Of a stretch of DNA of 64,000 nt, positions 1,652 through 49,833 are shown in pieces. The notes beneath the pieces are model-generated. The model had not been told where the DNA came from. It was given only the letters and a program-made list of their open reading frames with translations, and searched no databases. Origin of the DNA: Clostridiales bacterium (GTDB taxonomy: Bacteria > Bacillota > Clostridia > Oscillospirales > CAG-272); the NCBI GenBank assembly GCA_012800735.1, contig JAAZIU010000028.1, forward strand, positions 3,245 to 67,244, written 5' to 3'. Position 1 is the stretch's first letter. Each line of letters opens with the position of its first letter. The position numbers were made by a program, and so were the translations under genes.

Positions 1652-1697
1652 CAAAAAAACATAAATAATAACTTAACTTTGGAACGGCGAGTTTTCA
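1652..1697 (-). repeat. Partial copy of the hairpin-train repeat family, abutting the carboxypeptidase stop codon
   Basis: The plus strand reads aaaaaaacataaataataacttaactttggaacggcgagttttcagtga. This aligns to the copies at 34986-35040 and 22283-22316. The TGA stop (1697-1695) lies inside the element's first stem arm. Confidence 0.6.
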
Positions 1698-2984
1698 GTG
1701 AGCTCTTCTATGCGCCGTCACTATAATCGCTATAAACGCCACGACGCCGAAAGCGGCTGCGGCGGCTAATGTCAGGGGGCGGATAAGCAGCTCTTTCAGT
1801 TGATTCAGGCGGTATTTGAATTCGCTGCGGTCGACGTTTGATACCGCAACGAGGTCGGTTGAGCCGATAATCTCTCCCGATGTCCTGTCGTAAACGGTGA
1901 TGACGCCGTTTTTTTGTCCCTTTTCGACGGGGGCTGTCAGTACTTCGTTTTCTACCACGTAGTCGACGCGGACGTCGGTGCTGATGTTAAAGTTGTTCGG
2001 CAGGAAGAGGTCGATATCATCCGCCGGCGCCAGCACGACATAGTCGGCGCCGCTTGCAAGCCGCACAGGCACCTCACAGATAAGGTCGGAGCGGGAGACC
2101 GCCGCCGAGTAGTTGTAACTTCGGTAAGCCCAGTCGAGCAGATCGGAGGCGATGATATAGCTGTAAACATTCTCAGAGTCGGTCGAGGCGCCTAAAATCA
2201 CGCATAAATAGGTAAACGAACCGTCGTCGGACGTCGCGACGAGGGAGGCGCCGCCGCCCATGCTGGAACCGGCGTTTAATCCGGTGACGTCGCGGCGTCG
2301 GTATTTGGCGGTGATGGCGGTCGAGATGAAGTAGTTGCGGTTGCGTATTGTCCGCTCCGGCGCGACGTTCGTCGCCGGCATGACATAGCTTCGCTCTCCG
2401 GCGATGGTTGCGATGATGTCTATCGACGCGGCGTACATCGCTATCCGCGCGGTGTCAGCGGCGGTGGAGTATACGCCCTCTTCGTCGACGCCGGTCGGGT
2501 TCACGTAATTGGTGTTTTCGCAGCCGAGTTCAAGCGCCCGCTCGTTCATCAGGGCGACGAAATCCGGAATTGAGCCGGAGACGGCTTCCGCCAGAACGTT
2601 CGCGGCGTCGTTCGCTCCGCCGATGACCATCGCGCAGAGCAGCGCTTCGACGGTGGTCCTCTCCCCCGCCGAAAGCTCGATATAGTTGCCGACAACGCCC
2701 CTGACAGCGGATGAGGATACGGTAACCGTCGTGTCGAGCGCGCCGGCGAAATGCTCGGCGGTCAGAATTGCCGTCATCAGCTTGACGGTCGAAGCGGGAT
2801 AAAGTCGGGTGTCGGGGTTTTTCGCATAAAGCACCGTCCCCGATTCGAGATGATACATCATGACGGCGCGGGTATACCCGGTATCCGGCGCGTTAGGCGC
2901 TTCAAGATAGGCCGCAAATGACGGCAGAGAGCATAAAAACGCCAAAACCGCCGCGAAAAACAATGAAAAAAGTCTTTTCTTCAT
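1695..2984 (-). CDS. D-alanyl-D-alanine carboxypeptidase (serine peptidase S11, PBP5-like)
   Basis: 429 aa with an N-terminal signal peptide, SxxK active-site motif (PASTVKLMT) and a C-terminal TM anchor. Sits next to murD. Confidence 0.85.
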   Translation of the reverse strand: MKKRLFSLFFAAVLAFLCSLPSFAAYLEAPNAPDTGYTRAVMMYHLESGTVLYAKNPDTRLYPASTVKLMTAILTAEHFAGALDTTVTVSSSAVRGVVGNYIELSAGERTTVEALLCAMVIGGANDAANVLAEAVSGSIPDFVALMNERALELGCENTNYVNPTGVDEEGVYSTAADTARIAMYAASIDIIATIAGERSYVMPATNVAPERTIRNRNYFISTAITAKYRRRDVTGLNAGSSMGGGASLVATSDDGSFTYLCVILGASTDSENVYSYIIASDLLDWAYRSYNYSAAVSRSDLICEVPVRLASGADYVVLAPADDIDLFLPNNFNISTDVRVDYVVENEVLTAPVEKGQKNGVITVYDRTSGEIIGSTDLVAVSNVDRSEFKYRLNQLKELLIRPLTLAAAAAFGVVAFIAIIVTAHRRAH

Positions 2985-3064
2985 AGAGTTGTTGTTTCTT
3001 TATATAAAAATAACGGAAATATCGTTTGATTTTAAAGATAATATATTCGCTCAAAGTCAACCGA

Positions 3065-4495
3065 TTAACCGCCTGTTCGGCGTGTCTGACAAATGAGACT
3101 TCTGAATTTTTCTCCCCGCGCCATGAAGTTCGGGAAAGCGTCGAAGCTGGCGCAGGCGGGGGAAAGGATCACGATGTCGCCGCTTTTTGCAAGCGCCGCA
3201 GCGGCGCGGACGGCTTCGTCGAAGTCGGGAACCGAGTGATATTCAAACGGCCGCTTTGAAAACTCGGCGCCGCGGGTGACGGTCTGCTTTATCTTCTCTC
3301 CGGCGGCTCCGGTGAAGACGACCGCCTTCGCAAGGCGGCAGAGCGGCTCGGAGAGCGGCTCAAACGGAATTTTCTTGTCATATCCGCCCATGATGACTAT
3401 CAGCCGCCGCTCGTCGGGCGATTTTTCCGTTATCGGCGCGCCGGGGAGGCGGTTCGGGTCGTAATCGAAAGACTCAAGCGCGGCTATCGTTCGGGCGGGG
3501 CTGGAGTCGATGCTGCTGTTGTAAAACTTGACCCCGTCCCTTTCGCAGACAAGCTCGATGCGGTGCTCAACTCCGCCGAAGCTGCGGGCGAAGCGGCGTA
3601 TTTCGTCGTCGGGGACGAATCCCTCAAGCGCGGCGATGACGGCCATATAGTTTTCGACGTTGTGATGACCCGGGACGCGGATTTCGTCCGCCGCTAAAAC
3701 AGGCTCGCCTCGGCGGCAGATGTAATTCCGGCCGTCGATGAACTGCTCGCGGACATCGCCGTCTTCTCCGAACAATACGACTTCAACGCCGTCCTGCGCG
3801 TCGTCGGCGAAGCGCCGGGTGATTTCGTTTGCGGCGTTCAGGACAAGGCGGCCGCCGGGGCGCTGGTGGCGGAAGATGTTGGATTTCGCCTGTATATACT
3901 CGTCCATGTCGAGGTGGTAGTCGAGGTGGTTGGGGGTGATGTTTGTTATGACGGCTACATTCGGGCTGCGCTTCATTGTCTGGAGCTGAAAGGAGGAAAG
4001 CTCGACCGCGGCGATGTCGGAAGGGGACATTTCCTCGACTTTCGGGAGCAGCGGCTCGCCGATGTTGCCGCCGAGGAAGACGCGGGGGAATGCCCGCTCA
4101 AGAAGTCTGCCGATGACGGTTGTCGTGGTGGTTTTGCCGTCGGAGCCGGTGACGCCGATTATCGGGCAGGGGCATAGCTCGAAAAAAAGCTCCATTTCCG
4201 AAGTGATGAGGGCGCCGCGCTCTGCCGCCGCCAGAAACTGCGGCTTGTCAAAGCGGATGCCGGGCGCGCGGAAGACGGCTTCGTCAGTAATGCCGTCGAG
4301 ATAAGCCTCTCCGCAGACGACCGTGACCCCGGCTTTTTCCAGCTCTTCCGCCAGCGGCTCAAGCTTGTCGCGGGGCTTTATGTCGCGCGCGGTGACGCGG
4401 ATTCCGCGGTCGGTAAGCCACCCGATGAGCGGGCGGTTTGATATGCCGATCCCGACGACCGACGCCGTCTTAAAGCCGAGGTTTGTGTATTTCAT
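3065..4495 (-). CDS. murD: UDP-N-acetylmuramoylalanine--D-glutamate ligase
   Basis: 476 aa with the Mur ligase P-loop GVTGSDGKTTTTT and an N-terminal Rossmann-like GIGISNRPL typical of MurD. Confidence 0.9.
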   Translation of the reverse strand: MKYTNLGFKTASVVGIGISNRPLIGWLTDRGIRVTARDIKPRDKLEPLAEELEKAGVTVVCGEAYLDGITDEAVFRAPGIRFDKPQFLAAAERGALITSEMELFFELCPCPIIGVTGSDGKTTTTTVIGRLLERAFPRVFLGGNIGEPLLPKVEEMSPSDIAAVELSSFQLQTMKRSPNVAVITNITPNHLDYHLDMDEYIQAKSNIFRHQRPGGRLVLNAANEITRRFADDAQDGVEVVLFGEDGDVREQFIDGRNYICRRGEPVLAADEIRVPGHHNVENYMAVIAALEGFVPDDEIRRFARSFGGVEHRIELVCERDGVKFYNSSIDSSPARTIAALESFDYDPNRLPGAPITEKSPDERRLIVIMGGYDKKIPFEPLSEPLCRLAKAVVFTGAAGEKIKQTVTRGAEFSKRPFEYHSVPDFDEAVRAAAALAKSGDIVILSPACASFDAFPNFMARGEKFRSLICQTRRTGG

Positions 4496-4590
4496 GGATG
4501 TGTTCTCCGTTGAATTTGAGTATAGATATATTATATAATATATTTGAGGTTTTTATTTGAAGAATTGAGGGAATTTACATTTAGTTCATT

Positions 4591-4861
4591 GATTCCGCCA
4601 ACACGGAGTGTTGGCGGAATCGCGAGTTTCGCCTTTGGCGAAATCATCGCTGACTTGCACCTGACGGCGCAAGTCGAGAGTTTCGGCAAAGCCGAAACAT
4701 CTCAAGTCCCAAAGTTAAGTCTTAGCTTATGTTTTTTCTATAGGAAGTGAATAACCGCTATGCGGTTATTCTGCGAGTTTCGACTTCGTCGAAACGTCGC
4801 TGTCCCAAAGCTAAGTCTTTATTTGTGTTTTTTCTAAGGATGATTTTGCTTCGCAAAATCA
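4591..4861 (+). repeat. Composite of hairpin-train repeat modules (two core units plus flanking palindromes)
   Basis: Palindrome gattccgccaac..gttggcggaatc; cores gcgagtttcgcctttggcgaaatcatcgc, gagagtttcggcaaagccgaaacatctc (4676-4703) and gcgagtttcgacttcgtcgaaacgtcgc (4773-4800); tails ccaaagttaagtct..gttttttcta. Segment 4731-4840 recurs almost identically at 6509-6618. Confidence 0.8.
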
Positions 4862-4950
4862 TTTAATCCGTTATCCCGATAATGTTGACAAACCCCGCCG
4901 ATGGTGCTATAATTACGGCAGGAAAAACATTGCCGAAACGAGATGATAAA

Positions 4951-6432
4951 ATGAAAAAAATATATCGCATTTCAGCGGCGCTGCTTGCCGCGACAGTTGC
5001 TTTTTCCGCGGGCGCCGTACTTGTCGGCTGCGGAGATGAAACCGGCGGGGCGGACGTTACCGCCGCCCCGGAAGTAACCGATATCGCCGAAACGGCCGCC
5101 GAACCCGAAACCACGGCGATGACCGAGCCGGAATTGCCCCCGGCCGATTTCGAAGGATATGAGTTCCGATTCGTCCTCCAGAACGACGGCTACGGCGAGT
5201 GGAAGGGTCGGGAACTCGGCGAGGGGGAGCAGACCGGCGACACGCTGAACGACGCCCTTTACGAGCGCGACCTTAAAGTCAGCGAGCTTTACAGCGTTTC
5301 GCTCAAACCGCTGTTCACCGGGGACCTCGTCCGGCTCTTAAAAAACACCGTTACAGCCGGGGACAACGCCTGCGACGCGCTGTTCATCCAGGCGCCTCAG
5401 CTAACCTCTCCCGCCATGAACGGGCTTTTGTTCGACATAAAACAACTGCCGGGGCTCGACCTTGAAAATCCCTGGTGGGACGCTTACGCTGCGAAGACGC
5501 TTTCGATCGGCGGGCGGCTGTTCTTCACCTACGGCGACATGAACATCTGCGACAAGGACCTCACCTGGCTCGTCATGTTCAACAAAAAAATCGCCGAGTC
5601 ATACGGCGTCGGGAATCTTTACGCCGAGGTTGCGGACGGAAAGTGGACTTTCGACCTCTTCCGCGGCAAGTGCGCCGGCGTTTATAACGACCTCAACGGC
5701 GACGGGGTTGTGAACGACGACGACCTGTTCGGGCTTGTCACTCCGTATGACCGCACTATGCTCGCTTTCCTCTACTCCTGCGGCGTCGAAACGATAAAAA
5801 AGGACGACGGCGACCTGCCGGTCTACGCGATGGATTCGCCGAAACTTGCGGAGGTATTTTCCCGGGTGCTGAGCCTTTATTTCGACGGCGGCTGCGCGCT
5901 GGATGTCATGCGTGTCAGCGGCTACTGGCGGCGCACCGAGACGATGTTCTCGTCGAATCAGATACTCTTTTACGTCGAGTGTATGCAGAACGTCGAGCGG
6001 ATGCGGGCGATGCAGGACGACTTCGGCATTCTTCCGGTGCCGAAATACGATGAAGCCCAGGGCGAATATATCAACATGGTCTGCGACTTTGCGACCGCTG
6101 TCTGCGTTCCGGCGTCGGCTCCCGATCCCGACAGGACCGGCGCGGTGCTTGAAGCGATGAACGCCTATTCGAAGATGCTTGTCATGCCGGCTTATTACGA
6201 GGTTTCGCTCAAGACGAAATACGCCCGCGACAACGACTCCGCCGAGATGATAGACCTTATCTTCGGCCGCAGATATTTCGACCTCGCATATATCTACCAG
6301 TGGGGCGGCAGCATCGGCGCCGTCATGAAGCTCGCCGGCAAGGGCGATGAAAACGTCGTGTCGAAGCTGGAATCGCTGAGGGAGAAAACGGAAACGGCGA
6401 TACAGAAGACGGTAGAAGCCTATATTGGCTAA
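4951..6432 (+). CDS. Lipoprotein, family-1 solute-binding-protein-like (paralog 1 of 10)
   Basis: Signal peptide plus lipobox (AVLVGCGDE) and a T/E/A-rich linker. Family landmarks: NPWWDAY, DLNGDGVVNDDDLFG, FGILPVPKYDEAQ. Start moved to ATG 4951 (MKKIYRIS), downstream of the ORF-track start. Confidence 0.8.
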   Translation: MKKIYRISAALLAATVAFSAGAVLVGCGDETGGADVTAAPEVTDIAETAAEPETTAMTEPELPPADFEGYEFRFVLQNDGYGEWKGRELGEGEQTGDTLNDALYERDLKVSELYSVSLKPLFTGDLVRLLKNTVTAGDNACDALFIQAPQLTSPAMNGLLFDIKQLPGLDLENPWWDAYAAKTLSIGGRLFFTYGDMNICDKDLTWLVMFNKKIAESYGVGNLYAEVADGKWTFDLFRGKCAGVYNDLNGDGVVNDDDLFGLVTPYDRTMLAFLYSCGVETIKKDDGDLPVYAMDSPKLAEVFSRVLSLYFDGGCALDVMRVSGYWRRTETMFSSNQILFYVECMQNVERMRAMQDDFGILPVPKYDEAQGEYINMVCDFATAVCVPASAPDPDRTGAVLEAMNAYSKMLVMPAYYEVSLKTKYARDNDSAEMIDLIFGRRYFDLAYIYQWGGSIGAVMKLAGKGDENVVSKLESLREKTETAIQKTVEAYIG

Positions 6433-6640
6433 TCGTTCCGCAGGAGCGATTAGCCGAGAGTTTTACCTTTGGCAAAACTCTCCGTTCCGAAGTTCAGTTA
6501 TTATCTGTGTTTTTTCTATAGGAAGTGAATAACCGCTATGCGGTTATTCTGCGAGTTTCGACTTCGTCGAAACGTCGCTGTCCCAAAGCTAAGTTTTTAT
6601 TTGTGTTTTTTCTAAGGAAGATTTTGCCATCAGCAAAATC
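6427..6640 (+). repeat. Composite of hairpin-train repeat modules; the first palindrome contains the stop codon of the upstream gene
   Basis: ggcTAAtcgttcc-gca-ggagcgattagcc (6427-6455), then gagagttttacctttggcaaaactctc, ccgaagttcagt..gttttttcta, then a near-identical copy of 4731-4840. Confidence 0.8.
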
Positions 6641-6651
6641 AATTAATTAAA

Positions 6652-6676
6652 ATATCCCCCGATTGCTCGGGGGATT
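6652..6676 (-). terminator. Hairpin downstream of rnpB
   Basis: The minus strand reads aatcccccgagcaatcgggggatatttt, a 7-bp GC stem followed by a T-rich tract. Confidence 0.6.
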
Positions 6677-6679
6677 ACT

Positions 6680-7084: not shown

Positions 7085-7201
7085 GAATATCTGCTCAATA
7101 AGAGCAGATATTCGAGAGTTTCGACTACATCGAAACATCTCCGCCCCAAAGTCAAGTCTTTACCTATGTTTTTTCTGATGTAGGTTTTGCAAAGCAAAAC
7201 C
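7085..7201 (+). repeat. Hairpin-train repeat unit
   Basis: gaatatctgctc-aataa-gagcagatattc, then gagagtttcgactacatcgaaacatctc, then cgccccaaagtcaagtctttacctatgttttttct, then ggttttgcaaagcaaaacc. Confidence 0.8.
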
Positions 7202-7236
7202 AATTTATCCGGATGAGCTTTATGAAAGTCGGAGAC

Positions 7237-8715
7237 TCACAAATTCTCATAGCTCTCCAGCAATTTCTCCAGGTCCCCGCCAATCTTGTTCGCTATCTTC
7301 TCAAATTCGGTTACCGGGGATTTTGTCGACATCGCGACTTCGTTGAATTTGCCGTTCATGCCGCCTAATTGCAGCAGCAGTCCTAAATCGAAGGTCATGT
7401 TGTCGGTGAGGATTTTCAGCATCTCGACGGATTCTTCGTCGCGGGTAACTTTGCCCTGGATGTTTATCTCGTAATAGGCGGGCTTGAGGTCTCTGTACGA
7501 ATACGCACCGAGCATCTCGAGGATGGGGCCGTTCTCGGCGTAAGCTGCGTTTGAAACCGGCACGAACATTATCGCGGCGCCGCAGTAGCAGGTGCTCAGA
7601 TAATCCGGCTGGCTTTCATCGAACATCGGCATCGGAAGTATCCCGAAGTCGGCGTCCATCGCGCGGAGACCCCTGACTTCGCCCAGAACGTCGACGAAAA
7701 ACAGCGCGTGGTTCGAGGTGAAGGCGCCGATATAACCGTTGTTGTAACTTTCGTTGCCGGGGGTGTCGTAGCCGATATATTTTGCTTTGTCGGAGAAAAT
7801 CGTCTGCATCTTTTCGGCTATCGAAACGACGCGTTCGGAAAGTCCGTCATAGGTCACCGAATCGCCGCTTCTTTCGATAAAGCTGCCGCCGGCGCCCAAA
7901 ACAAAATAGCAGAGGGTAATAGTCGATGCGTCAATGCCGAAAAGGTCGTTTGCCGAGTTCATCGCGCCGTCTCCGTCGAGGTCGATGTTGACGGAGGAGG
8001 CGATTTCGAACATACGGTCAAGCGTCCACTTTTTGTCGCGGACGGTCTTGTATAAATCCTCAATGCCGTAATTCTTCGCGACGGTTTTGTTGAAACAGGG
8101 CGCTATCACCGACTCGTAATAATGCAGGTGCATCGGCGAATAGGTGTAAAATAGCCTGTCGCTTATCTGATAGAGTTCCACCGCATTCTGCTCCCACCAG
8201 GGGTTAGACCACTCGACGCCGGGGATTTCCAGCAGGTTGAGCATATATCCGCCGGCGGCGCTTTTGCCGGAAATTCCCGCTTCCGAGAACATCAAATCAA
8301 ACATATCGTCGCCGGACGCGGCGTTCTTGCGCAGCATGTTGTCGACCGCGCCGTAATCGCCGTCCGCGCCCTTGGTATTGATTATCCTGACGTTGAGCTT
8401 CTCTTCGACCGCGCGGTTTCGGTTGTAGATGGTGTCTTCGATAAGCTCTCCGGACATCGTGTCGAAGTCGAAGGCGGTGATTGCGTAGTTGGAAAACGCC
8501 GTCATCACGCGGAATTCATATCCGCCGTAGTCTTTTACGGCGAGGGCGTCAAAAAGCTGCTGTTCGGGGGAGACGGTCGTTTCTTCTTCCTCGGCGGTTG
8601 TGTCATCGCCCCGATCCGCCGGCGTCGGAGCCGAGCCGCAGGAAATTAGAGCGCCCGCCACGACGCCTGACAAGAGCAGCAGGGCAAGCGTCAGAGATAA
8701 AATATTCTTTTTCAT
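7237..8715 (-). CDS. Lipoprotein, family-1 solute-binding-protein-like (paralog 2 of 10)
   Basis: Lipobox GALISCGSA; SNPWWEQN, DLDGDGAMNSANDLFG, FGILPMPMFDESQ. Confidence 0.8.
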   Translation of the reverse strand: MKKNILSLTLALLLLSGVVAGALISCGSAPTPADRGDDTTAEEEETTVSPEQQLFDALAVKDYGGYEFRVMTAFSNYAITAFDFDTMSGELIEDTIYNRNRAVEEKLNVRIINTKGADGDYGAVDNMLRKNAASGDDMFDLMFSEAGISGKSAAGGYMLNLLEIPGVEWSNPWWEQNAVELYQISDRLFYTYSPMHLHYYESVIAPCFNKTVAKNYGIEDLYKTVRDKKWTLDRMFEIASSVNIDLDGDGAMNSANDLFGIDASTITLCYFVLGAGGSFIERSGDSVTYDGLSERVVSIAEKMQTIFSDKAKYIGYDTPGNESYNNGYIGAFTSNHALFFVDVLGEVRGLRAMDADFGILPMPMFDESQPDYLSTCYCGAAIMFVPVSNAAYAENGPILEMLGAYSYRDLKPAYYEINIQGKVTRDEESVEMLKILTDNMTFDLGLLLQLGGMNGKFNEVAMSTKSPVTEFEKIANKIGGDLEKLLESYENL

Positions 8716-8799: not shown

Positions 8800-9065
8800 G
8801 AATAATGTCGGTGCTTTCGCGCCGACATTATTCGAGAGTTTTGGCTTCGCCAAAACGTCTCCGTTCCAAAGTCAAGTTTTTACAGGTGTTTTTTCTAATG
8901 TAGGTTTTGGCTTTGCCAAAACCAATAATCAAGTGGTGCTTTCGCGCCGACATTATTCGCGAGTTTCGCCTTCGGCGAAACGTCGCTCGCCCCTGAACAG
9001 CGCGAAGCGCTGTTCGCGAATATTGCCAGCGGCAATATATCGCCGCTGGATAGTTAAGTTTTTAC
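8800..9065 (+). repeat. Composite of hairpin-train repeat modules
   Basis: gaataatgtcggtg-ctttcg-cgccgacattattc, then gagagttttggcttcgccaaaacgtctc (8834-8861), then ccaaagtcaagttttta..gttttttcta. A second unit has gcgagtttcgccttcggcgaaacgtcgc plus two more palindromes. Confidence 0.8.
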
Positions 9066-9538
9066 TTTTTTTCGTCCGTTGTGCCGAAGATTATTTCGGC
9101 GGCCGATCCGGGTTTTTTCTCCTCGTATTCGATTGCCTGTGCTATCGTCGCCTGGGCGAGTTTTGAGCGGATTTCCTCGTTTACCCGACAGATAAAGCAG
9201 TGGAAGTAACAGTCTTTCGGCGTGTTGCCGAGTTTTGCGGCGCGGGTGCACTCGTAGTCGGGGGAGAGACATTTGTTCACTATGATAGGTCCGTCAACGG
9301 CCTCTACTACCTCGAGAACGGTGATGTCGTCGTTTTCGCGGGCGAGGAAATACCCGCCGCCGGGACCCTGCTTTGAGTTTACAAAGCCGGATATCATCAG
9401 CTTGCGCAGTATCTTTAATGTGAATCTTTCGGGAACGGCGATTTGTTCGGCTATCATTTTTGAGCCGACTACCGTCCCGTGCTGTCCGAGACAGCGCAGA
9501 ATACGCAGGGCATAATCGGTTTCACTTGTAATCTTCAT
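9062..9538 (-). CDS. Rrf2-family transcriptional regulator
   Basis: MKITSETDYALRILRCLG..., a winged-helix Rrf2 signature, with C-terminal Cys residues (CLSPDYEC..C..C). Start placed at ATG 9538 rather than the longer ORF-track start. Confidence 0.8.
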   Translation of the reverse strand: MKITSETDYALRILRCLGQHGTVVGSKMIAEQIAVPERFTLKILRKLMISGFVNSKQGPGGGYFLARENDDITVLEVVEAVDGPIIVNKCLSPDYECTRAAKLGNTPKDCYFHCFICRVNEEIRSKLAQATIAQAIEYEEKKPGSAAEIIFGTTDEKK

Positions 9539-10555: not shown

Positions 10556-10691
10556 GGCAAAAATAGTATATATAAGTTATCTGTGAATCAATATGTTTTA
10601 TAGGGCAAAACTCGCGGCTGGCGTGAAGCGCCAGCCGGTATAAGCAATCAGATTAATTTATTTTGCGAAGCGGAATATATTCACCGGCTAT

Positions 10692-10785
10692 CAGAAAAAA
10701 CACCTGTAAAGACTTAACTTTGGTGCGGAGATGTTTCGGCTTCGCCGAAACTCTCGCATAACTGCGGACGAAGTCCGCAGTTATG
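10692..10785 (-). repeat. Hairpin-train repeat unit directly after fba; the palindrome contains the fba stop codon
   Basis: The minus strand reads caTAActgcggac-ttc-gtccgcagttatg, then cgagagtttcggcgaagccgaaacatctc, then cgcaccaaagttaagtctttacaggtgttttttctg. Confidence 0.8.
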
Positions 10786-11716
10786 CCTTGCCTTCGCAGC
10801 CGAGGACATTCTTAATCTTATGCTTTACGATAGTCTTGACGTTGTCGCGGGCGACTTTGAGGTAGCTGCGCGGGTCGAAGACGTCGGGCTGTTCGAACAT
10901 GACTTTGCGGATGCCGGCGGTCATCGCGAGGCGGATATCCGAGTCGATGTTTATCTTGCAGACGGCGCCGCGGGCGGCCTGGCGGAGCTGCTCTTCCGGG
11001 ATGCCGATGGCGTCTTTGAGGGCGCCGCCGGTCGCGTTGATCTGGCGGACGTATTCCTGCGGCACCGAGGACGCGCCGTGGAGAACGATCGGGAAGCCGG
11101 GCAGGCGGCGGGCGATTTCTTCAAGGATGTCAAAGCGGAGATGCGGGTCTTCGCCGGGCTTGAACTTGTATGCGCCGTGAGAGGTGCCTATCGCGATGGC
11201 GAGGGAGTCGACGCCGGTCGACTTTACGAATTCCTCAACCTCGTCCGGGTCGGTATACATCGCCTTGTCGGCTTCGACGGAGACGGCGTCTTCGATGCCG
11301 GCGAGGGTTCCCAGCTCGGCTTCGACGGTGACGCCGCGGGCGCGCGCGTATTCTACGACTCTTTTTGTCTCGGCGATGTTGTCTTTAAACGGATGGGAGG
11401 AGTAGTCAATCATGACGGAGGTAAATCCGCTGTCGATGCAGTCGCGGCAGGTTTCGAAATCGCCGCCGTGGTCGAGGTGGAGGGCGAAATCGATGCCTAA
11501 GTCTTCGCAGGCGGCGTGCGCAAGCGCCTTTAAATAGGCGGGCTTTGCGTATTTGCGGGCGCCGGCGGAAGCCTGGAGGATGAGCGGAGCTTTCAGCTCG
11601 GCGGCGGCTTCGGTAACGCCCTGAATAATCTCCATATTGTTGATGTTGAAAGCGCCGACCGCGTATCCGCCTTCGTAGGCCTTCATCAGCATTTCTTTGG
11701 TGTTTATAAGAGCCAT
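10781..11716 (-). CDS. fba: Class II fructose-1,6-bisphosphate aldolase
   Basis: MALINTKEMLMKAYEGGYAVGAFNINNME.., LHLDHG, GTSHGAYKF, HGASS. Start ATG 11716 has an AAAGGA RBS. Confidence 0.9.
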   Translation of the reverse strand: MALINTKEMLMKAYEGGYAVGAFNINNMEIIQGVTEAAAELKAPLILQASAGARKYAKPAYLKALAHAACEDLGIDFALHLDHGGDFETCRDCIDSGFTSVMIDYSSHPFKDNIAETKRVVEYARARGVTVEAELGTLAGIEDAVSVEADKAMYTDPDEVEEFVKSTGVDSLAIAIGTSHGAYKFKPGEDPHLRFDILEEIARRLPGFPIVLHGASSVPQEYVRQINATGGALKDAIGIPEEQLRQAARGAVCKINIDSDIRLAMTAGIRKVMFEQPDVFDPRSYLKVARDNVKTIVKHKIKNVLGCEGKA

Positions 11717-13397: not shown

Positions 13398-13624
13398 TTT
13401 ATACCTCCTGATTATATGGCCTGTGGTGATTTATAATTTTTTTTAAACCGCGCTTCACGCGTAAGCAGCGGGGGCAGCCGTTTTTTCCCCGAACACGGCT
13501 ACGGCGGTCAGTTTGTTACGGTTAATAAAGAAGAGCCGCAGCCCCGAACCCGGCGGCTGCAAACCGCCGGATTCAAGTCCGCGCAGTCAATGCGCCGTCA
13601 AACTTACCCCTGCAGCTACTGCAG

Positions 13625-15124: not shown

Positions 15125-15166
15125 TTTTCTGCCTCGTGTTTTTCTTTTATGTTGTAAGCATTAAAT

Positions 15167-18763: not shown

Positions 18764-19003
18764 TTTTTATACCTCCTGCCGGCGTTCCGCGCCGACCGCT
18801 GTCCAAGGTTTTTATCGGTGTTTTTTATGTATTATATTTAAAAAAACTTTTGATTTTTTCTTGAGCGTTTACAATTTATTGTAGAATTACTTTTACGGTT
18901 ATGTTACTATATGAATAACCGCGCGGCGGTTATTCGCCGCCGGATAATCAAGTTTTTATCGGTTTTTATAAAACAAATTCAGAATATTATCGGGGAGGAA
19001 ACC

Positions 19004-22229: not shown

Positions 22230-22238
22230 TTTGGTTTT

Positions 22239-22544
22239 TTACCGTTTATATGAAACGAAACTTATTTTAATGGGCTTCTCTTGGAACGGCGACGTTTCAC
22301 CGAAGGTGAAACTCGCAGCGGACGCGAAGCGTCCGCAGACGCCCCAGACGTTGCCCAGCGCCATCGCTATCATTATCGTGCCGATGACAATCGTCCAGAC
22401 TATCTGCGAGGAGGAAAAATACGGCGCGAGCAGCCGGTTCGCTCCGATCTCGACCGCCATAAGCGACATTCCGGCGAAAAATCCGGCTGCGTACAAGAAG
22501 AATCGGCTGTTGAGGGCGGACGCAGGTTTTGTTGTAGGTGTCAT
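22239..22544 (-). pseudogene. Duplicated 5' fragment (leader plus first 68 codons) of the spermidine-synthase-like gene, reading through into a repeat element
   Basis: The first 68 aa are identical to CDS 20592-22229. The leader ttttaccgtttatatgaaacgaaactt is also duplicated (22241-22272 and 22556-22587). Confidence 0.8.
22276..22340 (-). repeat. Hairpin-train repeat unit at the duplication junction
   Basis: The plus strand reads ttggaacggcgacgtttcaccgaaggtgaaactcgc (core 22289-22316) followed by palindrome gcggacgc-gaa-gcgtccgc. Confidence 0.75.
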
Positions 22545-29691: not shown

Positions 29692-31041
29692 ATGGAATAT
29701 TTCATAGGTCTTGACATCGGCACTTCATCGATAAAAGGGGTGCTGCTCTCCCATGACGGAGATAAAGAAAGCCTCGCGTCGATCGCAGGGACAAAGACGG
29801 TCTATCACCCGGCGCGGCTCGGAGACGGCCCCGAATACGTCGGCTACTCCGCCGAAAAGCTCTATCAAAACGCCTGCGGCGTTATCCGCGCGCTGCTGAA
29901 TTCTCTGTCTTTGACTCAGCTCGTCGCGGTCAAAGGGCTGGCTATCGCCTCCGCTTCCGGCAACACGGTTTTAGTGTCGGATAAAGGGGAGCCGCTGCAC
30001 GACGCCTTTTCCTGGACGTCCCCTCCGGCGCAGGAGGAATACGACCGGTTTTTCGGGGAAAAATCCCCCTTCGGCGCCGTCGACCCGGAGGAGGTTTACC
30101 GCGCCTGCGGCTGGCCGATATCCGCGACATTCCCGCCCGGGCACCTTTCGTATATCGCCGCGCATCGGCCGGAGCTGATAAAGAACGCCTCGAAGGCGGC
30201 GATGACTACCGAATATATAATTTACCGCCTCTGCGGCGAGTGGGCGACCGATCCTTCCACCGCGACTCCGAGTTATCTCTGCGATCAGGAAAAGGCCGAG
30301 TGGCTGCCGTCGATGTATGAGCGGGTCGGGGTGCGTCAAGAGCAGCTGCCGCGCATAGGTTATACCGGCGAAACTGTCGGGAAGATAACTCCGGCGGCCG
30401 CCGCCGACAGCGGACTGCCGACTTCCTGCCGGGTGGTATTGGGGTCTTTTGACCATCCTTCTGCGGCAAGGGGAGCTGCGCCGAGGGTCCTCCGAGAGGG
30501 ACAGCTGCTGCTTTCCTGCGGCACTTCCTGGGTGGTGTTCGCGCCGATAAACGAAAAAGAGACGGTTATACGCGAGCGGCTGCTCTGCGATCCGTTCGAG
30601 ACTATGCGCGGCGGCGCCTGGGGCGGGATGTTCAGCCTTGAGTCGGTCGCGGCGAAAATCGATAAAATCGTAACGAAATACGTCAGTTCGGCTCCCAACC
30701 GCGCAAAGCATTTCGACGCCGCCGCCGAGCAGGCCGAACCCGGCTCGGGTGGGCTTGTCATCGACCCGACAGCGGACGCCGGCCGCGACTTCTCCGCCTA
30801 TGAGCCGAAAAATGTCGCCCGCGCCGTGATGGAAGGCACCGCAAGGCTCTTAAAAGACCGCCTCGACGCGCTTGCCGAATCATCGGGACTTCGTTTTTCC
30901 TCCGCCGCGATGGCGGGAGGTCCGTCGAACAGCAAAATCTGGCGGAAGATAATCGAAGATACTCTCGGTTATGAAGTGACGGTAAGCTACGCTGCCCACA
31001 CCGGCGCCCTTGGCGCGGCGAGAGTCGCGAGGGGAAAGTGA
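29692..31041 (+). CDS. FGGY-family carbohydrate kinase
   Basis: MEYFIGLDIGTSSIKGVLL (phosphate-1), GNTVL.., and C-terminal GGPSNSKIWRKIIEDTLG. Confidence 0.85.
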   Translation: MEYFIGLDIGTSSIKGVLLSHDGDKESLASIAGTKTVYHPARLGDGPEYVGYSAEKLYQNACGVIRALLNSLSLTQLVAVKGLAIASASGNTVLVSDKGEPLHDAFSWTSPPAQEEYDRFFGEKSPFGAVDPEEVYRACGWPISATFPPGHLSYIAAHRPELIKNASKAAMTTEYIIYRLCGEWATDPSTATPSYLCDQEKAEWLPSMYERVGVRQEQLPRIGYTGETVGKITPAAAADSGLPTSCRVVLGSFDHPSAARGAAPRVLREGQLLLSCGTSWVVFAPINEKETVIRERLLCDPFETMRGGAWGGMFSLESVAAKIDKIVTKYVSSAPNRAKHFDAAAEQAEPGSGGLVIDPTADAGRDFSAYEPKNVARAVMEGTARLLKDRLDALAESSGLRFSSAAMAGGPSNSKIWRKIIEDTLGYEVTVSYAAHTGALGAARVARGK

Positions 31042-31081
31042 CTCCGGCAGCCGTTTCACCGCTTCGAGGGCTACCCGCCCC

Positions 31082-31503: not shown

Positions 31504-31670
31504 CCGCCTGCGAGCGCCAAGGAGCGTTGGCCGCGGCGAGAGTCGCGAGGGGAAAGTAATTGCAGCAACGCGCCGAGGAGCGGCGGCCGCGGCGAGAGTC
31601 GCACAGGGAAAGTAACCCCCTGCGAGCGCCGAGGAGCGGCGGCGCGGCGAGAGTCGCGAAGGGGAATTAA
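31504..31670 (+). repeat. Three further ~57-nt units repeating the last ~30 nt of the kinase gene, each including a stop codon
   Basis: ..gcggcgagagtcgcgaggggaaagtaa / ..gcggcgagagtcgcacagggaaagtaa / ..gcggcgagagtcgcgaaggggaattaa. Confidence 0.8.
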
Positions 31671-33877: not shown

Positions 33878-33897
33878 AATAACAACGGGTACTTGAA

Positions 33898-34929: not shown

Positions 34930-34977
34930 AAAAAACTCCCTCTCACGGCAGAAAACCCAACCTGCCGCGGGAGGGAA
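34930..34977 (-). terminator. Duplicate copy of the ddl terminator hairpin (no minus-strand gene feeds it)
   Basis: aaaaaactccctctcacggcagaaaacccaacctgccgcgggaggga, which matches 36484-36529 apart from 2 differences. Confidence 0.6.
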
Positions 34978-34985
34978 CTTTTATT

Positions 34986-35097
34986 AGAAAAAACATAAAT
35001 AAAAACTTTACTTTGGTGCGGAGATGTTTTTCCGTAGGAAAAACTCTCGAATGGCGCGGAGCGCCATTCAGCGAAGACAAAATCCTCCTTAGAAAAA
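34986..35097 (-). repeat. Hairpin-train repeat unit
   Basis: agaaaaaacataaataaaaactttactttggtgcggagatgtttttccgtaggaaaaactctc, then gaatggcgcggagcgccattc, then ..gacaaaatcctccttagaaaaaac (the last module is shared with 36553-36580). Confidence 0.75.
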
Positions 35098-35101
35098 ACT
35101 A

Positions 35102-35130
35102 TTGACATTATAACGGTTTTCCGTTATAAT
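35102..35130 (+). promoter_or_regulatory. Consensus promoter with a perfect palindrome in the spacer (candidate operator)
   Basis: TTGACA (35102-35107), 17 nt, then TATAAT (35125-35130). TTATAACGG-tttt-CCGTTATAA spans the spacer and -10. AGGAGG lies 8 nt before ATG 35151. Confidence 0.7.
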
Positions 35131-35150
35131 AGTATCAGGAGGTGAGCTTG

Positions 35151-36438: not shown

Positions 36439-36483
36439 GAAACAAGGTGAATTTATCCGGCGCTCCGCGCCATCGCGAACGAT

Positions 36484-36529
36484 AAAAAACTCCCTCTCAC
36501 GACAGAAAACCAACCTGCCGCGGGAGGGA
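36484..36529 (-). terminator. Terminator of ddl
   Basis: The minus strand reads tccctcccgcggcaggttggttttctgtcgtgagagggag followed by ttttttatc. Confidence 0.65.
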
Positions 36530-36540
36530 AAATTCATTTA

Positions 36541-36707
36541 ATTGATTTTGTCTTCGACAAAATCCTCCTTAGAAAAAACACAAGCTATGACTAAACTGTC
36601 CAACGGCGATATATTGTCGAAGACAATATTCGCGACTAACGCGAAGCGTTAGTCAGAGATGATTTTGCCTTCGGCAAAACTCGCGAATAGCGCCTGCGGC
36701 GCTATTC
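36541..36707 (-). repeat. Composite hairpin-train repeat directly after ddl; the palindrome contains the ddl stop codon
   Basis: The minus strand reads gaaTAGcgcc-gca-ggcgctattc (36707-36685), then gcgagttttgccgaaggcaaaatcatctc, then two further palindromes, then ..tgtgttttttctaagga. Confidence 0.8.
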
Positions 36708-44956: not shown

Positions 44957-46417
44957 ATGAAAAAAATCAAAATCACAGCGGCGTTTCTGCTCCTCGTCAT
45001 GCTTTTCGGAACTTTCGCCGGCTGCGGCGATTCCGGCGGCGATACGGCCGTTACCACGGCGGCGCTGACCGACGCTCCCGAGGAGACCACCGAAGCGCCT
45101 GTCAAAGCCGACCTGCCCGATGTTGACTATAACGGCGATACTTTCACCGTATATATGCGGGTGAGCGACTGGTTCGCCGCCGACTTCGACGTGGAAGAGA
45201 TTACCGGCGACACCATGGACGACGCGATATTCGAGCGCAATTCAAGAGTCTCAGAGAAGTTCAACATTGTCTTCGAGTTCCTCCGCGACAACGACGATTT
45301 CGGTCTGAACACCGCCCGAACCGCCGTTCTTGCCGGAGATTCGAGTCTTGACCTGTTGCTGCCGCACGCCAGATTCGTATTCCCGTACGCCCTCGAAGGG
45401 CTGCTTTACGACTGGAATACCGACCTTCCTTATATCGACCTCGACAAGCCCTGGTGGAACGACGACGCGCGCGCCGCCTTCTCGCTCTGCAACCGCCTTT
45501 TCGCGATGGTGGGAGATATCAGCTACACCAATTTAGGCTCAACCAAGTGTATGCTCTTCAACAAGAACATCCTCGATCAGTTGGGAATCGAATCGCCGTA
45601 TCCGATGGTAGTTTCCGGAGAATGGACGATGGACAAAATGGCCGAGCTTACCAAAAGCGCGGCGTCCGACCTTAACGGCGACGGCAAGTATGACATCGCC
45701 GACGACCGCTACGGCTACATCACCACCCACTGGAGCGGACCGATACAGGTGCTCTATTCCGCCGATCAGCGCATCGCCCGGAAGGACGAAAACGACCTGC
45801 TTTATCTTACCCTCAACACCGAGACCACCGTCAATGCCTTTGAGAAGTTCTTCGCCATCACCGACGGCGAAGGCGGCTATATTCACTGCCAGGACGACGG
45901 TACTCTCGTAACTAACTGCTTCCGTTCCGGGCGCGCCCTTTTCTACGATGTCAACATCGGAGGGGTAGAGAGCCTGCGCGACATGGACGAGGATTTCGGC
46001 ATTATCCCCTGGCCGAAATATGACGAGACCATCGAAAACTATTACGCCAACGTCGACGCCGGCTGCAACCTCTACATCGTTCCGGTCACAAATCCCGACC
46101 CGGAGCAGGCGTCGGTCATTCTTGAGGCTCTCGCCTATGAGAGCTATCTTACCGTGCTGCCCACCTATTATGACGTGGTGCTGACAACCAAGTTCACCCG
46201 CGACGCCGAATCGGAGGATATGCTCGACATCATCCGCGCCGGCAGAGTATTCGATATCGGCTACTATTTCTTCGACAACTCCAACGACCTGAACAGCGTC
46301 GGCTGGTATCTGACTAAAACCCCCGACCGCAGCTTCGCCTCCGTCTACGCAAAGTATGAGAAGCTGGTTCTGAAACAGTATGAAAAGGTCAACGAGAAAT
46401 TCATGGAACTCGGCTGA
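44957..46417 (+). CDS. Lipoprotein, family-1 solute-binding-protein-like (paralog 7 of 10)
   Basis: Lipobox TFAGCGDS; DKPWWNDD, DLNGDGKYDIADDRYG, FGIIPWPKYDETI. Confidence 0.8.
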   Translation: MKKIKITAAFLLLVMLFGTFAGCGDSGGDTAVTTAALTDAPEETTEAPVKADLPDVDYNGDTFTVYMRVSDWFAADFDVEEITGDTMDDAIFERNSRVSEKFNIVFEFLRDNDDFGLNTARTAVLAGDSSLDLLLPHARFVFPYALEGLLYDWNTDLPYIDLDKPWWNDDARAAFSLCNRLFAMVGDISYTNLGSTKCMLFNKNILDQLGIESPYPMVVSGEWTMDKMAELTKSAASDLNGDGKYDIADDRYGYITTHWSGPIQVLYSADQRIARKDENDLLYLTLNTETTVNAFEKFFAITDGEGGYIHCQDDGTLVTNCFRSGRALFYDVNIGGVESLRDMDEDFGIIPWPKYDETIENYYANVDAGCNLYIVPVTNPDPEQASVILEALAYESYLTVLPTYYDVVLTTKFTRDAESEDMLDIIRAGRVFDIGYYFFDNSNDLNSVGWYLTKTPDRSFASVYAKYEKLVLKQYEKVNEKFMELG

Positions 46418-48774: not shown

Positions 48775-49350
48775 ATGTCAAACAAGTTCATCGTCGAGAC
48801 TTCCGCTCACCACCTTCATTTGAGCGCCGAACACCTTGCAATTCTTTTCGGCGAAGACGCCGAGCTTACCGTCAGAAAGATGCTGAGCCAGCCGGGGCAG
48901 TTTGCCTGCGAAGAGCAGGTTGCAGTTGAAGGCCCCCGCGGCCGTCTTGAGCGCGTTCGCGTTTTAGGTCCCGTCCGCGCCGAGAGCCAGGTCGAGCTTT
49001 CCGCCACCCACGCCCGCACCCTCGGCATCAAAGCTCCCGTCCGCGAATCCGGCGTAATCGACGGCACTCCCGGCTGCAAGCTGATCGGCCCTTGCGGCGA
49101 AGTTGAGCTCGACAAGGGCGTCATCATAGCCAAGCGCCACATCCATATGACCCCCGCCGACGCCGAAGCTTTCGGAGTCGCCGACAAAGACATCGTCTCC
49201 GTTAAAATAGACACCCCCGACCGTTCCCTGATTTTCGGCGACACCGTCGTCCGCGTTTCCCCCAAGTTCGCCCTTGCGATGCACATTGACACCGACGAAT
49301 CAAACGCCGCCAACGCCGGCGGAGAAGTTTACGGAGAGATAGTCAGGTAA
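48775..49350 (+). CDS. pduL: Phosphate propanoyltransferase
   Basis: ETSAHHLHLS..., RVLGPVR, AKRHIHMTP, AMHIDTDE (duplicated PduL His motifs). Confidence 0.85.
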   Translation: MSNKFIVETSAHHLHLSAEHLAILFGEDAELTVRKMLSQPGQFACEEQVAVEGPRGRLERVRVLGPVRAESQVELSATHARTLGIKAPVRESGVIDGTPGCKLIGPCGEVELDKGVIIAKRHIHMTPADAEAFGVADKDIVSVKIDTPDRSLIFGDTVVRVSPKFALAMHIDTDESNAANAGGEVYGEIVR

Positions 49351-49408
49351 TCTAAGGTTTTTCAGCCGCCGCGCTGAGTTACGGCTTAAAACCGGATATT
49401 ACATATAA

Positions 49409-49475
49409 TAACTAAACTTCGGAACAGCGATGTTTTGCCCCCGGCAAAACTCGCGAATAGCGCGAAGCGCTATTC
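49409..49475 (-). repeat. Hairpin-train repeat unit
   Basis: taactaaacttcggaacagcgatgttttgcccccggcaaaactcgc followed by gaatagcgcgaagcgctattc. Confidence 0.75.
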
Positions 49476-49540
49476 ATAGTAAGTTAAGTTTTTTGGGTGT
49501 GAGAAAAACCTTTTTTTAAAAAAGGTCTTTCTCTTTAATC

Positions 49541-49657
49541 TCCGGCGACACCGTCGTCCGCGTCTCCCCCAAGTTCGCCCTCGCGATGCACATCGACACC
49601 GACGAATCGAACGCCGCCAACGCCGGCGGAGAAGTTTACGGAGAGATAGTCAGGTAA
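49541..49657 (+). pseudogene. Tandem duplicate of the last ~115 nt of pduL
   Basis: Encodes GDTVVRVSPKFALAMHIDTDESNAANAGGEVYGEIVR*, identical in aa to the parent. All 4 nt differences are synonymous. The 3' UTR is also copied, to ~49698. Confidence 0.8.
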
Positions 49658-49700
49658 TCTAAGGTGTTTCAGCCGCCGCGCCGAGGTACGGCTTAAACCA

Positions 49701-49833
49701 ATAAAAACTAAACTTTGGTGCGGCGATGTTTTGCCTCCGGCAAAACTCGCGAATGGCGCGAAGCAGCCATTCAGGGGCGAGTGATGTTTCACCGAAGGTG
49801 AAACTCACAGCCGGCGCGGAGCGCCGGCAGACG
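49701..49833 (-). repeat. Composite hairpin-train repeat (two cores)
   Basis: ..aaactttggtgcggcgatgttttgcctccggcaaaactcgc, then gaatggcgcgaagcagccattc, then gtgatgtttcaccgaaggtgaaactcac (49781-49808), then gccggcgcggagcgccggc. Confidence 0.75.

What the first reader, a model, noticed from the sequence alone, without database searches (positions are those of the whole stretch)
1652..49833. Modular hairpin-train intergenic repeat family whose core stem covaries
At least 11 intergenic sites carry combinations of the same modules: 1652, 4591, 6427, 7085, 8800, 10692, 22276, 34986, 36541, 49409 and 49701. Module (a) is a variable perfect palindrome, often GAATA-N-loop-N-TATTC. Module (b) is a core hairpin [GC][AC]GAGTTTY-NNNN-loop-NNNN-RAAAC-RTC[TG]C. 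Module (c) is a tail CCAAAGTYAAGT...TGTTTTTTCT. In the core, the four stem positions next to the loop differ between copies but stay complementary: cggc/gccg, cgac/gtcg, tggc/gcca, cgcc/ggcg, tgcc/ggca, cacc/ggtg. So the structure is conserved rather than the sequence. Loops are frequently TTCG or GAAG. Copies occur in both orientations and are concatenated into trains of 2-5 hairpins. Segments up to ~110 nt are near-identical (4731-4840 and 6509-6618). No transposase, integrase or TnpA-REP-like gene is in the window. The family behaves like REP/BIME or MITE elements, and I do not recognise it as a described one.
Basis: seen in the sequence. Interest (0 to 1): 0.65.

Follow-up and report, generated by a model that had tools for sequence, protein, structure and literature searches.

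The report
Modular palindromic intergenic DNA repeat family
An uncultured biogas-reactor Clostridiales bacterium has about a third of the larger gaps between its genes filled with trains of short DNA hairpins that behave like the REP/BIME repeats of E. coli, and their core hairpin matches the unexplained TD-1/TD-2 "RNA motifs" of Treponema denticola.

Summary

The core is a 12-bp stem with one bulged purine. Six of its pairs covary, and 98.7% of cells pair across 48 distinct copies.

The family is not wholly undescribed. Rfam's TD-1/TD-2 models hit the copies below threshold, and their consensus core, CUGCGAGUUU…AAACAUCGC, is the same.

The evidence favours a DNA-level REP/BIME-like element over a dedicated RNA:
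- Pairing is almost purely Watson-Crick, with no excess of G·U.
- Loops invert between strains.
- Orientation relative to transcription is 5 sense, 5 antisense.
- Whole units and flanked gene cassettes come and go between sister genomes.
- Elements sit at the joints of tandem duplications.

No transposase is in the window, so the mobilising factor is unknown. Only 2 of 185,579 reference species carry core plus tail.

Verdict: a new variant of a known kind, of moderate interest.

The parts
1644..1725 (-). Truncated unit: the 3' arm of the core plus the tail (c), fused to the stop codon of the D-Ala-D-Ala carboxypeptidase gene (1695..2984)
   Evidence: Model R1 scores 37 bits; sequence. The sister genome locus L007 carries two full trains flanking a nucleotidyltransferase gene at this position.
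4591..4872 (+). Train a-b1-a'-b-c | a-b-c-d with seven hairpins, lying just upstream of the consensus promoter at 4885
   Evidence: The unit 4730-4825 (96 nt) is absent from L007 and is bounded by an 11-nt direct repeat, TGTTTTTTCTA. Two hairpin loops are inverted relative to L007.
6430..6648 (+). Train a*-b(symmetric variant)-c | a-b-c-d, lying between the stop codon of the lipoprotein gene (ends 6432) and the shared terminator at 6654-6675
   Evidence: Modules a and d differ from the orthologous copy in L007.
7085..7210 (+). Single a-b-c-d unit abutting the -35 box of the RNase P RNA promoter (7083, minus strand)
8800..9083 (+). Train a-b-c-d | partial a-b-a''-b'(ATATTG variant)-c', abutting the -35 box of the promoter at 8798 (minus strand)
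   Evidence: L026 has a different module content here, plus a rubrerythrin gene.
10595..10790 (-). a-b-c with a degenerate d, then a further hairpin and a truncated core; lies between the fba gene and the acyl-ACP thioesterase gene
18785..18978 (+).
   Evidence: Model R1 scores 18.8 and 22.8 bits. The sequence shows ATTC-GC|CGCC, the junction left when the core hairpin is removed exactly.
22278..22341 (-). a-b plus a tail fragment, lying exactly between two tandem copies (22027-22277 and 22342-22592, 95% identical) of the 5' end of the spermidine-synthase-like gene
34930..35110 (-). c/d fragment, then a-b-c, then a bidirectional terminator (34930-34976)
   Evidence: This copy is orthologous to the single copy in L024.
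36485..36707 (-). Train a-b1-a'-b'-c-d, then a second copy of the same terminator (36485-36530); lies in the 3' UTR of ddl
   Evidence: Together with 35052-36485 (an HTH_3 + DUF6036 gene pair) it is absent from L024.
49385..49475 (-). a-b-c unit lying inside the proximal copy of a roughly 300-bp tandem duplication (49236-49476 and 49543-49773, 88% identical) that includes the 3' end of the PTAC gene
49684..49828 (-). Train a-b | a-b-c, partly inside the distal copy of the same duplication, upstream of rpsO
   Evidence: The L010 orthologue carries an extra tail plus a further module here.

Best explanation
This is a REP/BIME-like family of modular palindromic DNA repeats that populates intergenic DNA in a small clade of biogas-reactor Clostridiales.

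The unit is a-b-c. Units are strung head to tail and usually closed by module d. Module b is the constant part: a 12-bp hairpin, G-N-GAGTTTY-NNN / NNN-RAAAC-(R)-TC-N-C, with one bulged purine.

Inference: this hairpin forms in single-stranded DNA, and a trans-acting protein recognises it through its invariant lower stem and bulge. That protein has not been identified. It also exists in Treponema, where the same core defines the TD-1/TD-2 motifs.

Shown here:
- Whole units are gained or lost.
- Modules are swapped between copies.
- Loops flip.
- Hairpins are excised exactly.
- Trains mark the joints of tandem duplications and the borders of small accessory-gene indels.

The perfect Watson-Crick 'covariation' is therefore best read as palindrome maintenance at the DNA level, with one arm templating the other together with inter-copy conversion, and not as selection on an RNA.

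When a train lies in a transcribed region, its hairpins will fold in the RNA in either orientation. They may then stabilise or process transcripts. I regard that as a side effect, not the reason the family exists.
For: - Copy number, intergenic restriction and modularity. Trains occupy 11 of 38 intergenic gaps of at least 60 nt, and none lies in coding sequence.
- Pairing is Watson-Crick. Of 528 cells, 3 are G·U. Seven do not pair, and 5 of those are A·C or C·A. There is thus no strand-specific excess of wobble pairs.
- Loop inversions between orthologous hairpins (GGA↔TCC and TTC↔GAA). TTC and GAA are the two commonest loops.
- A 96-nt unit indel bounded by TGTTTTTTCTA, with a 109/110-identical copy 1.8 kb away.
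- Module replacement at orthologous sites.
- Core-less a-c copies.
- Elements at the joints of tandem duplications in five loci.
- Accessory genes flanked by direct copies of trains.
- Orientation relative to flanking transcription is 5 sense, 5 antisense and 1 upstream of a promoter, from the gene map and promoters. Strand counts are 6 plus to 7 minus.
- Patchy distribution: core plus tail occurs in only 2 of 185,579 species representatives.
- The same core in Treponema-type loci that pass the TD-1/TD-2 thresholds.
- Density reaches 6 cores in 9 kb of housekeeping genes in L104.
Against: - Mobility by a dedicated enzyme is inferred, not shown.
- The direction of each indel (insertion or deletion) is unknown.
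- The long, variable duplications of 58-260 bp fit no classical transposition mechanism.
- The authors of TD-1/TD-2 judged those motifs 'probably' RNA (PMC1950547).
- Several trains lie between a stop codon and a terminator (6430-6648 and 36540-36707), so they are transcribed.
- The RNA data available were assembled contigs only, so they could not test for discrete transcripts or processing.
Confidence: 0.6

Rival explanations
1. The trains are structured RNA elements. Either they are members of a TD-1/TD-2-like class of cis-regulatory or small RNAs, or they are UTR modules that stabilise, terminate or direct processing of mRNAs. In this reading the covariation reflects selection on RNA folding.
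For: - Strong covariation and very stable predicted folds.
- Sub-threshold hits to the TD-1/TD-2 models, which Rfam types as cis-regulatory and sRNA.
- Two trains lie between a stop codon and a terminator.
- A U-rich single-stranded tail between hairpins would suit RNase or Hfq binding (inference).
Against: - Orientation relative to transcription is 5 sense to 5 antisense.
- Three trains lie upstream of -35 boxes, and so outside the transcripts those promoters start.
- There is no excess of G·U over A·C.
- Loops invert freely.
- No module scores as an intrinsic terminator.
- Modules are swapped or lost between close strains with no change in the flanking genes.
Confidence: 0.2
2. The core hairpin is an attC-like, structure-specific recombination site. 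A single-strand recombinase would exchange small gene cassettes and modules between sites, which would make the trains cassette borders rather than transposons.
For: - An HTH_3 + DUF6036 pair, a nucleotidyltransferase gene and a rubrerythrin gene are each present in one genome and absent from its sister, and each lies beside trains. The first two are flanked by direct copies of trains.
- The core has a hairpin with a conserved base, a variable top and an extrahelical purine.
- TD-1 was reported upstream of a wide range of poorly characterised genes (PMC1950547).
Against: - Most trains flank housekeeping genes such as ddl, rpsO, fba, RNase P RNA, gyrA and recA.
- There is no integrase gene and no cassette array.
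- The attC boxes (RYYYAAC…GTTRRRY) are absent.
- One gene indel, L010 4872-6350 against window 54036-54135, has no element.
- Plain homologous recombination between direct repeats explains the same indels.
Confidence: 0.1
3. The elements are non-autonomous derivatives of an IS200/IS605-type or RAYT-type element. A Y1 HUH transposase would move them as single-stranded hairpins ('peel and paste') into a preferred target, TTTTTTCTA.
For: - One unit-sized indel is bounded on both sides by TGTTTTTTCTA, and a near-identical donor lies 1.8 kb away.
- The b and d hairpins at the two ends of a unit resemble each other.
- The irregular stem with a bulged base is the kind of feature Y1 transposases read (established knowledge of IS608 and RAYT).
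- GTAG precedes hairpin d in about a quarter of units.
Against: - No Y1 gene was seen.
- Left flanks of trains in unique DNA show no common target.
- There is no strand bias (6 plus to 7 minus), though the replication direction is unknown.
- GTAG is not invariant.
- The long flanking duplications are not expected from this mechanism.
Confidence: 0.1

Closest known systems
Rfam TD-1 (RF03155) and TD-2 (RF03162), clan CL00124: repeated motifs of Treponema denticola (Weinberg et al. 2007, PMC1950547)
   Same: - The core hairpin consensus is identical, CUGCGAGUUU-stem-loop-stem-AAACAUCGC.
- An upstream variable hairpin abuts the core.
- There is a U-run downstream.
- The motifs occur on both strands: TD-2 partly equals the reverse complement of TD-1.
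- Stems are modular and variable.
- The function is unknown.
   Different: - Window copies score 27-32 bits, against gathering scores of 64.5 and 48.7.
- The loop has 3 nt, not 4.
- Tail (c) and hairpin (d) are specific to this family; model R1 matches Treponema-type loci only over the core.
- The host is a Clostridiales bacterium, not a spirochaete.
- Density is much higher.
- Treponema-type TD-2 copies often lie inside PDDEXK_9 genes.
REP / BIME of enterobacteria and REPIN-RAYT systems (Bertels & Rainey 2011, PMC3116915)
   Same: - Extragenic imperfect palindromes.
- Probably hundreds per genome.
- Combined into mosaics with conserved linkers.
- Transcribed when they lie in UTRs.
- Found at the joints of duplications.
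- Vary between strains.
   Different: - Modules here follow one another in the same direction, not in alternating or inverted orientation.
- There is no invariant GTAG.
- No RAYT has been found so far.
- The unit includes a roughly 40-nt unstructured tail.
BOX elements of Streptococcus pneumoniae (boxA-boxB(n)-boxC)
   Same: A Firmicutes intergenic repeat built from ordered modules, with a variable number of internal modules and strong predicted folding (from my own knowledge of the family).
   Different: No sequence similarity was tested. BOX ends pair with each other and carry short target duplications, and these trains do neither.
Integron attC sites
   Same: Structure rather than sequence is conserved. 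The base of the hairpin is conserved, the top is variable, and there is an extrahelical base. Some trains lie next to small accessory genes.
   Different: The R/L boxes are absent. There is no intI gene and no cassette array. Most neighbouring genes are housekeeping genes.

Membership tests
Rfam TD-1 / TD-2 (CL00124) | Score at or above the family's gathering threshold | tested here: not met
   The best TD-1 hit scores 31.7 bits against 64.5. The best TD-2 hit scores 31.9 bits against 48.7. Treponema-type metagenome loci do pass, at 67-77 bits.
Rfam TD-1 / TD-2 (CL00124) | Core hairpin CUGCGAGUUU…AAACaUCGC directly preceded by a variable hairpin | tested here: met
   The cmscan alignment of 4765-4871 shows the core matched letter for letter. 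The TD-2 alignment also covers module (a).
Rfam TD-1 / TD-2 (CL00124) | The 3' long A/U-rich hairpin of TD-1 | tested here: inconclusive
   It aligns to tail plus module d, but with several non-standard pairs. Model R1 does not match Treponema-type loci beyond the core.
REP / REPIN-RAYT | Short extragenic palindromes in high copy number | tested here: met
REP / REPIN-RAYT | Two REPs in inverted orientation forming a REPIN | tested here: not met
   All modules of a train share one orientation.
REP / REPIN-RAYT | A RAYT (Y1 transposase) gene flanked by the repeats | not testable with these tools
   None is present in the window or in the loci held. The whole genome could not be scanned.
REP / REPIN-RAYT | An invariant GTAG at the foot of the hairpin | tested here: not met
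   GTAG precedes hairpin d in about 8 of 30 units. The other units have GAAG, GATG or GTAA.
BIME | A mosaic of distinct palindrome types joined by conserved linkers, with successive palindromes in alternating orientation | tested here: not met
   The mosaic and the conserved linkers are present. The alternating orientation is not.
MITE | Terminal inverted repeats and a short target-site duplication of fixed length | tested here: not met
   The ends are GAATA… and …AATTWAT, which are not inverted repeats of each other. The insertion in L026 is flanked by a roughly 58-87-bp duplication.
IS200/IS605-derived element (PATE) | Insertion 3' of a fixed short target without duplication, and an orientation bias linked to replication | tested here: inconclusive
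   There is one indel bounded by TGTTTTTTCTA. Other left flanks share no common target. Strand counts are 6 plus to 7 minus.
Integron attC | R''/L''…L'/R' boxes (RYYYAAC…GTTRRRY) within an array of cassettes next to intI | tested here: not met
   The sequence reads GTTT…AAAC, which is the reverse order. There is no integrase, and the neighbouring genes are housekeeping genes.
Intrinsic terminator | A G+C-rich hairpin followed directly by a T-run | tested here: not met
   No a, b or d module is called as a terminator. The real terminators lie after the trains, at 6654-6675, 34930-34976 and 36485-36530.

The most novel reading that the evidence does not exclude
The constant core hairpin, with its bulged purine, may be the recognition site of an enzyme that acts on single-stranded DNA and has not been identified. 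That enzyme would be shared by Treponema and a clade of Clostridia. The TD-1/TD-2 'RNA motifs' would then be mobile DNA. The elements would drive gain and loss of small accessory genes and a peculiar hairpin-anchored tandem duplication of 58-260 bp of flanking DNA. That would amount to a new mechanism of bacterial genome plasticity.
Probability: 0.2. Interest if true: 0.7.

Novelty: new variant of a known kind. Interest (0 to 1): 0.45.

Why it matters
- It gives a second, distant host for the TD-1/TD-2 motif clan, which has been unexplained since 2007. It also argues that the clan is a DNA repeat and not an RNA.
- It explains why metagenome assemblies of these abundant biogas organisms break between genes. 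Many contigs end at the trains.
- It warns annotators against calling the trains sRNAs or ORFs.
- It offers natural material for studying how palindromes cause duplications, deletions and gene-cassette turnover in Firmicutes, where REP-like systems are poorly known.

Tried and rejected
- Rfam at gathering thresholds finds only RNase P RNA in the window. At lax thresholds nothing besides TD-1/TD-2 and noise appears, so there is no group II intron, ωRNA/HEARO, riboswitch or T-box.
- There are no tRNA or tmRNA genes.
- A DGR reading of the 49236/49543 duplicate was rejected. The differences are ordinary transitions, not adenine-specific changes.
- K-turn and attC box readings of the core were rejected by inspecting the sequence.
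- A viral-contig scan for core plus tail found nothing.
- A screen of ORFs in related loci for HUH/Y1 motifs was too noisy and gave no candidate.
- tblastn with the Treponema-type PDDEXK_9 and Rpn-like proteins found nothing in the Clostridiales DNA held.
- RNA and DNA runs were available only as assembled contigs. They showed raised depth and broken contigs at the repeats, but no usable transcript ends or excision joints.
- A 99.3%-identical strain (L117) has all its differences in the first 2 kb, so it gave no rate information.
- An apparent longer spacer in L119/L121 turned out to be a difference in gene calling, not an insertion.
- Literature searches found no follow-up on TD-1/TD-2.

Full report
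**Source**

The window comes from an uncultured Clostridiales bacterium of biogas fermenters. It is identical to ENA and Logan metagenome contigs from such samples. The genes are ordinary chromosomal ones: ddl, cysS, a pyruvate-formate-lyase-like gene, rpsO, pnp, fba, RNase P RNA, peptidases, sugar kinases and a set of paralogous lipoproteins. About 85% of the window is coding.

**Observation**

The key words are enriched over dinucleotide shuffles: GAGTTTY occurs 40 times against 21, and the tail word 9 times against 2.5.

Of 56 perfect hairpins with a stem of at least 8 bp in the window, 46 fall in the 2.3 kb of trains. About 3 are expected for the whole window. The train 4591-4872 folds into seven hairpins with z of about -12, whether folded as DNA or as RNA.

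A covariance model built from 34 distinct core-plus-tail copies (A8, R1) finds 17 copies at E < 0.01 in the window. It also finds two core-less a-c copies, at 18785-18837 and 18907-18978, that were not listed. Trains occupy 11 of the 38 intergenic gaps of at least 60 nt, and none lies in coding sequence.

**Anatomy**

The unit has three ordered modules.

- Module (a) is a perfect palindrome. Its base is conserved (GAATA…TATTC, or GACT…AGTC, or GCNG…CNGC) and its top is free.
- Module (b) is the core.
- Module (c) is a roughly 40-nt unstructured tail, CGYWCCAAAGTNAAGTYNTTAT-NNN-TGTTTTTTCTRR.

After the tail comes one of two things. Either the next unit's (a) follows, or a closing hairpin (d) does: GRTTTTGNC-loop-GNCAAAAYC followed by AATTWAT.

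RNAalifold places the core as a 12-bp stem with a single bulged purine: G-N-G-A-G-T-T-T-Y-N-N-N / N-N-N-R-A-A-A-C-(R)-T-C-N-C. A variant core, GCGAATATTGYC…GRCAATATATCGC, occurs at 9016-9043 and 36607-36633.

**Covariation**

In 48 distinct copies from the window and two sister genomes, 98.7% of cells pair. Six of 11 scored pairs change on both sides. There are 83 double-change cells against 25 ± 6.5 in shuffles, and slid controls drop to 41-54% paired.

Those copies were picked with a mild pairing filter, so I repeated the test on copies chosen by the tail alone. Of 32, 22 have all 12 pairs Watson-Crick. Most of the rest are register shifts or carry one or two mismatches.

**What kind of constraint is it?**

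The pairing is almost purely Watson-Crick. There are 3 G·U cells in 528. Seven cells do not pair, and 5 of those are A·C or C·A. There is therefore no strand-specific tolerance of wobble pairs, which selection on an RNA would be expected to leave.

Between the window and the sister genome DUUJ01, two orthologous hairpins differ only in that the 3-nt loop is replaced by its reverse complement (GGA↔TCC and TTC↔GAA). TTC and GAA are also the commonest loops overall. This is the signature of a palindrome flipping at the DNA level.

Relative to the flanking genes and their promoters, trains are sense at five sites and antisense at five. One lies upstream of a promoter in a divergent gap. Three trains abut -35 boxes, at 4885, 7083 and 8798. 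No module looks like an intrinsic terminator; the true terminators follow the trains.

**Dynamics**

*Unit-level change.* A whole a-b-c unit (4730-4825) is absent from L007. It is bounded by the 11-nt repeat TGTTTTTTCTA, and a 109/110-identical copy lies at 6509-6618. Modules a and d differ at orthologous sites while b-c stays put. Train composition differs at 8990-9054 and at 49690-49780.

*Accessory genes.* Three small accessory genes or gene pairs are present in one genome and absent from its sister, and each lies beside trains:
- HTH_3 + DUF6036 at 35142-36438 in the window
- a nucleotidyltransferase gene in L007
- a rubrerythrin gene in L026

The first two are flanked by direct copies of trains.

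*Tandem duplications.* In five independent loci an element sits at the joint of a tandem duplication of unique flanking DNA:
- the 5' end of the gene at 22027/22342
- the 3' end of the PTAC gene at 49236/49543, which is present in three independent assemblies
- the RNase P promoter in L026
- a spacer in L028
- a gene start repeated three times in L008

These are shown. Such long and variable duplications (58-260 bp) fit no classical transposition mechanism. I leave them as unexplained; template switching at hairpins is the most economical idea.

**Distribution and relatives**

A scan of 185,579 species representatives for core plus tail found the family in only two MAGs, both from biogas reactors (DUUJ01 and JAAZGC01). 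There were also four single matches that are probably chance. Three further biogas or sludge metagenome contigs carry it. One of them has six cores in 9 kb, lying between pfkB, gyrA, lipase genes and recA.

Rfam at lax thresholds gives repeated sub-threshold hits of TD-1 and TD-2 on the trains and on nothing else. The alignment shows the same core letter for letter, along with the abutting upstream hairpin.

TD-1/TD-2 were described in 2007 as repeated motifs found only in T. denticola, of unknown function (PMC1950547). I found no later work on them.

A metagenome scan for the shared core returned 82 loci, of which 41 have a palindromic centre. Thirty-six or so of those 41 are of a different, Treponema-like type. 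The sampled ones pass the TD-1 or TD-2 gathering scores. Nine of these loci carry an AAA-ATPase_like + PDDEXK_9 gene within 3 kb of the core. The ORF reads through the element in frame in L074, L050 and L090, and stops close to it in L098 and L106.

My model matches these Treponema-type loci only over the core. That match is partly circular, because the loci were retrieved by a core pattern.

The window family is thus a distant relative that shares the core module. It is not a member of the Rfam families.

**Mechanism**

I commit to a DNA-level, REP/BIME-like repeat (confidence 0.6). An unidentified factor recognises the core hairpin. Modules spread and reshuffle by recombination and possibly by transposition. 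Any RNA effects are incidental.

- Shown: the structure, the covariation, the polymorphism, the loop flips, the association with duplications, the lack of orientation bias, and the absence of transposases in the window.
- Inferred: folding in single-stranded DNA, a trans-acting protein, and the direction of the indels.

The rivals are a structured RNA (0.2), attC-like cassette sites (0.1) and a Y1-transposase derivative (0.1). Their tests are set out in the Rival explanations section.

**Limits**

- Only the window plus about 200 kb of related DNA could be examined, so a single-copy mobilising gene could easily be missed.
- The RNA and DNA runs were available only as assembled contigs.
- Orthologous copies are not independent, so cell counts overstate the number of evolutionary events.

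Noticed in passing
window 30617-31670: The 3' part of the FGGY sugar-kinase gene (29692..31041) is tandemly duplicated: 30617-31042 and 31079-31504 are 96% identical. Further short repeats of its last roughly 30 codons follow. No hairpin-family element lies at these joints. The end of contig k127_867114 maps here, at about window position 30895.
   Followed up: partly
window 7237-8715, 11910-16657, 57738-62241, 4951-6432: Eight paralogous lipoproteins of about 495 aa have lipobox signal peptides and no Pfam hit. They lie in two arrays of three plus two singletons, and are probably sugar-binding proteins of ABC transporters.
   Followed up: partly
L074 636-733, L050 1224-1320, L043, L057 (metagenome loci): Bona fide TD-2 matches (67-72 bits) were found in L043, L050, L057 and L074. 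In L074 and L050 the match lies inside an AAA-ATPase_like + PDDEXK_9 gene, just before the nuclease domain, and the ORF reads through it in frame. In L098 and L106 the ORF stops close to the element. An Rpn/YhgA-like putative transposase gene lies next door in L050.
   Followed up: partly
window 34930-34976 and 36485-36530: The same bidirectional terminator, CCCTCCCGCGGCAGG…GAGGGAGTTTTTTAT, occurs twice, each time right after a train. The two copies bracket an HTH_3 + DUF6036 nucleotidyltransferase pair (a toxin-antitoxin-like module) that the related genome L024 lacks.
   Followed up: yes
window 5678-5725, 19716-19763, 45657-45704: Repeated coding motif for D-L-N-G-D-G-type calcium-binding (dockerin-like) segments in several secreted proteins. 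This hints at a cellulosome-type lifestyle.
   Followed up: no
L031 8748-8860 (IMG/VR contig UViG_3300011973_000007): A TD-1 match above the gathering score (77.5 bits) lies near the end of a contig classed as viral. Treponema-type elements may therefore travel on phages.
   Followed up: no
L062 8132-8218 and L115 ~5222: A single TD-2-like copy (42 bits in L062) lies about 130 nt upstream of a gene whose product starts MARIAG, which resembles ribosomal protein S13.
   Followed up: no
window 875-1561 and upstream (L117 18995-20798): An MmeI-like methyltransferase / Eco57I-type restriction-modification gene lies at the left edge of the window. A 99.3%-identical strain (L117) has all 149 of its differences in the first 2 kb of the window, which suggests a recombination tract.
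   Followed up: partly
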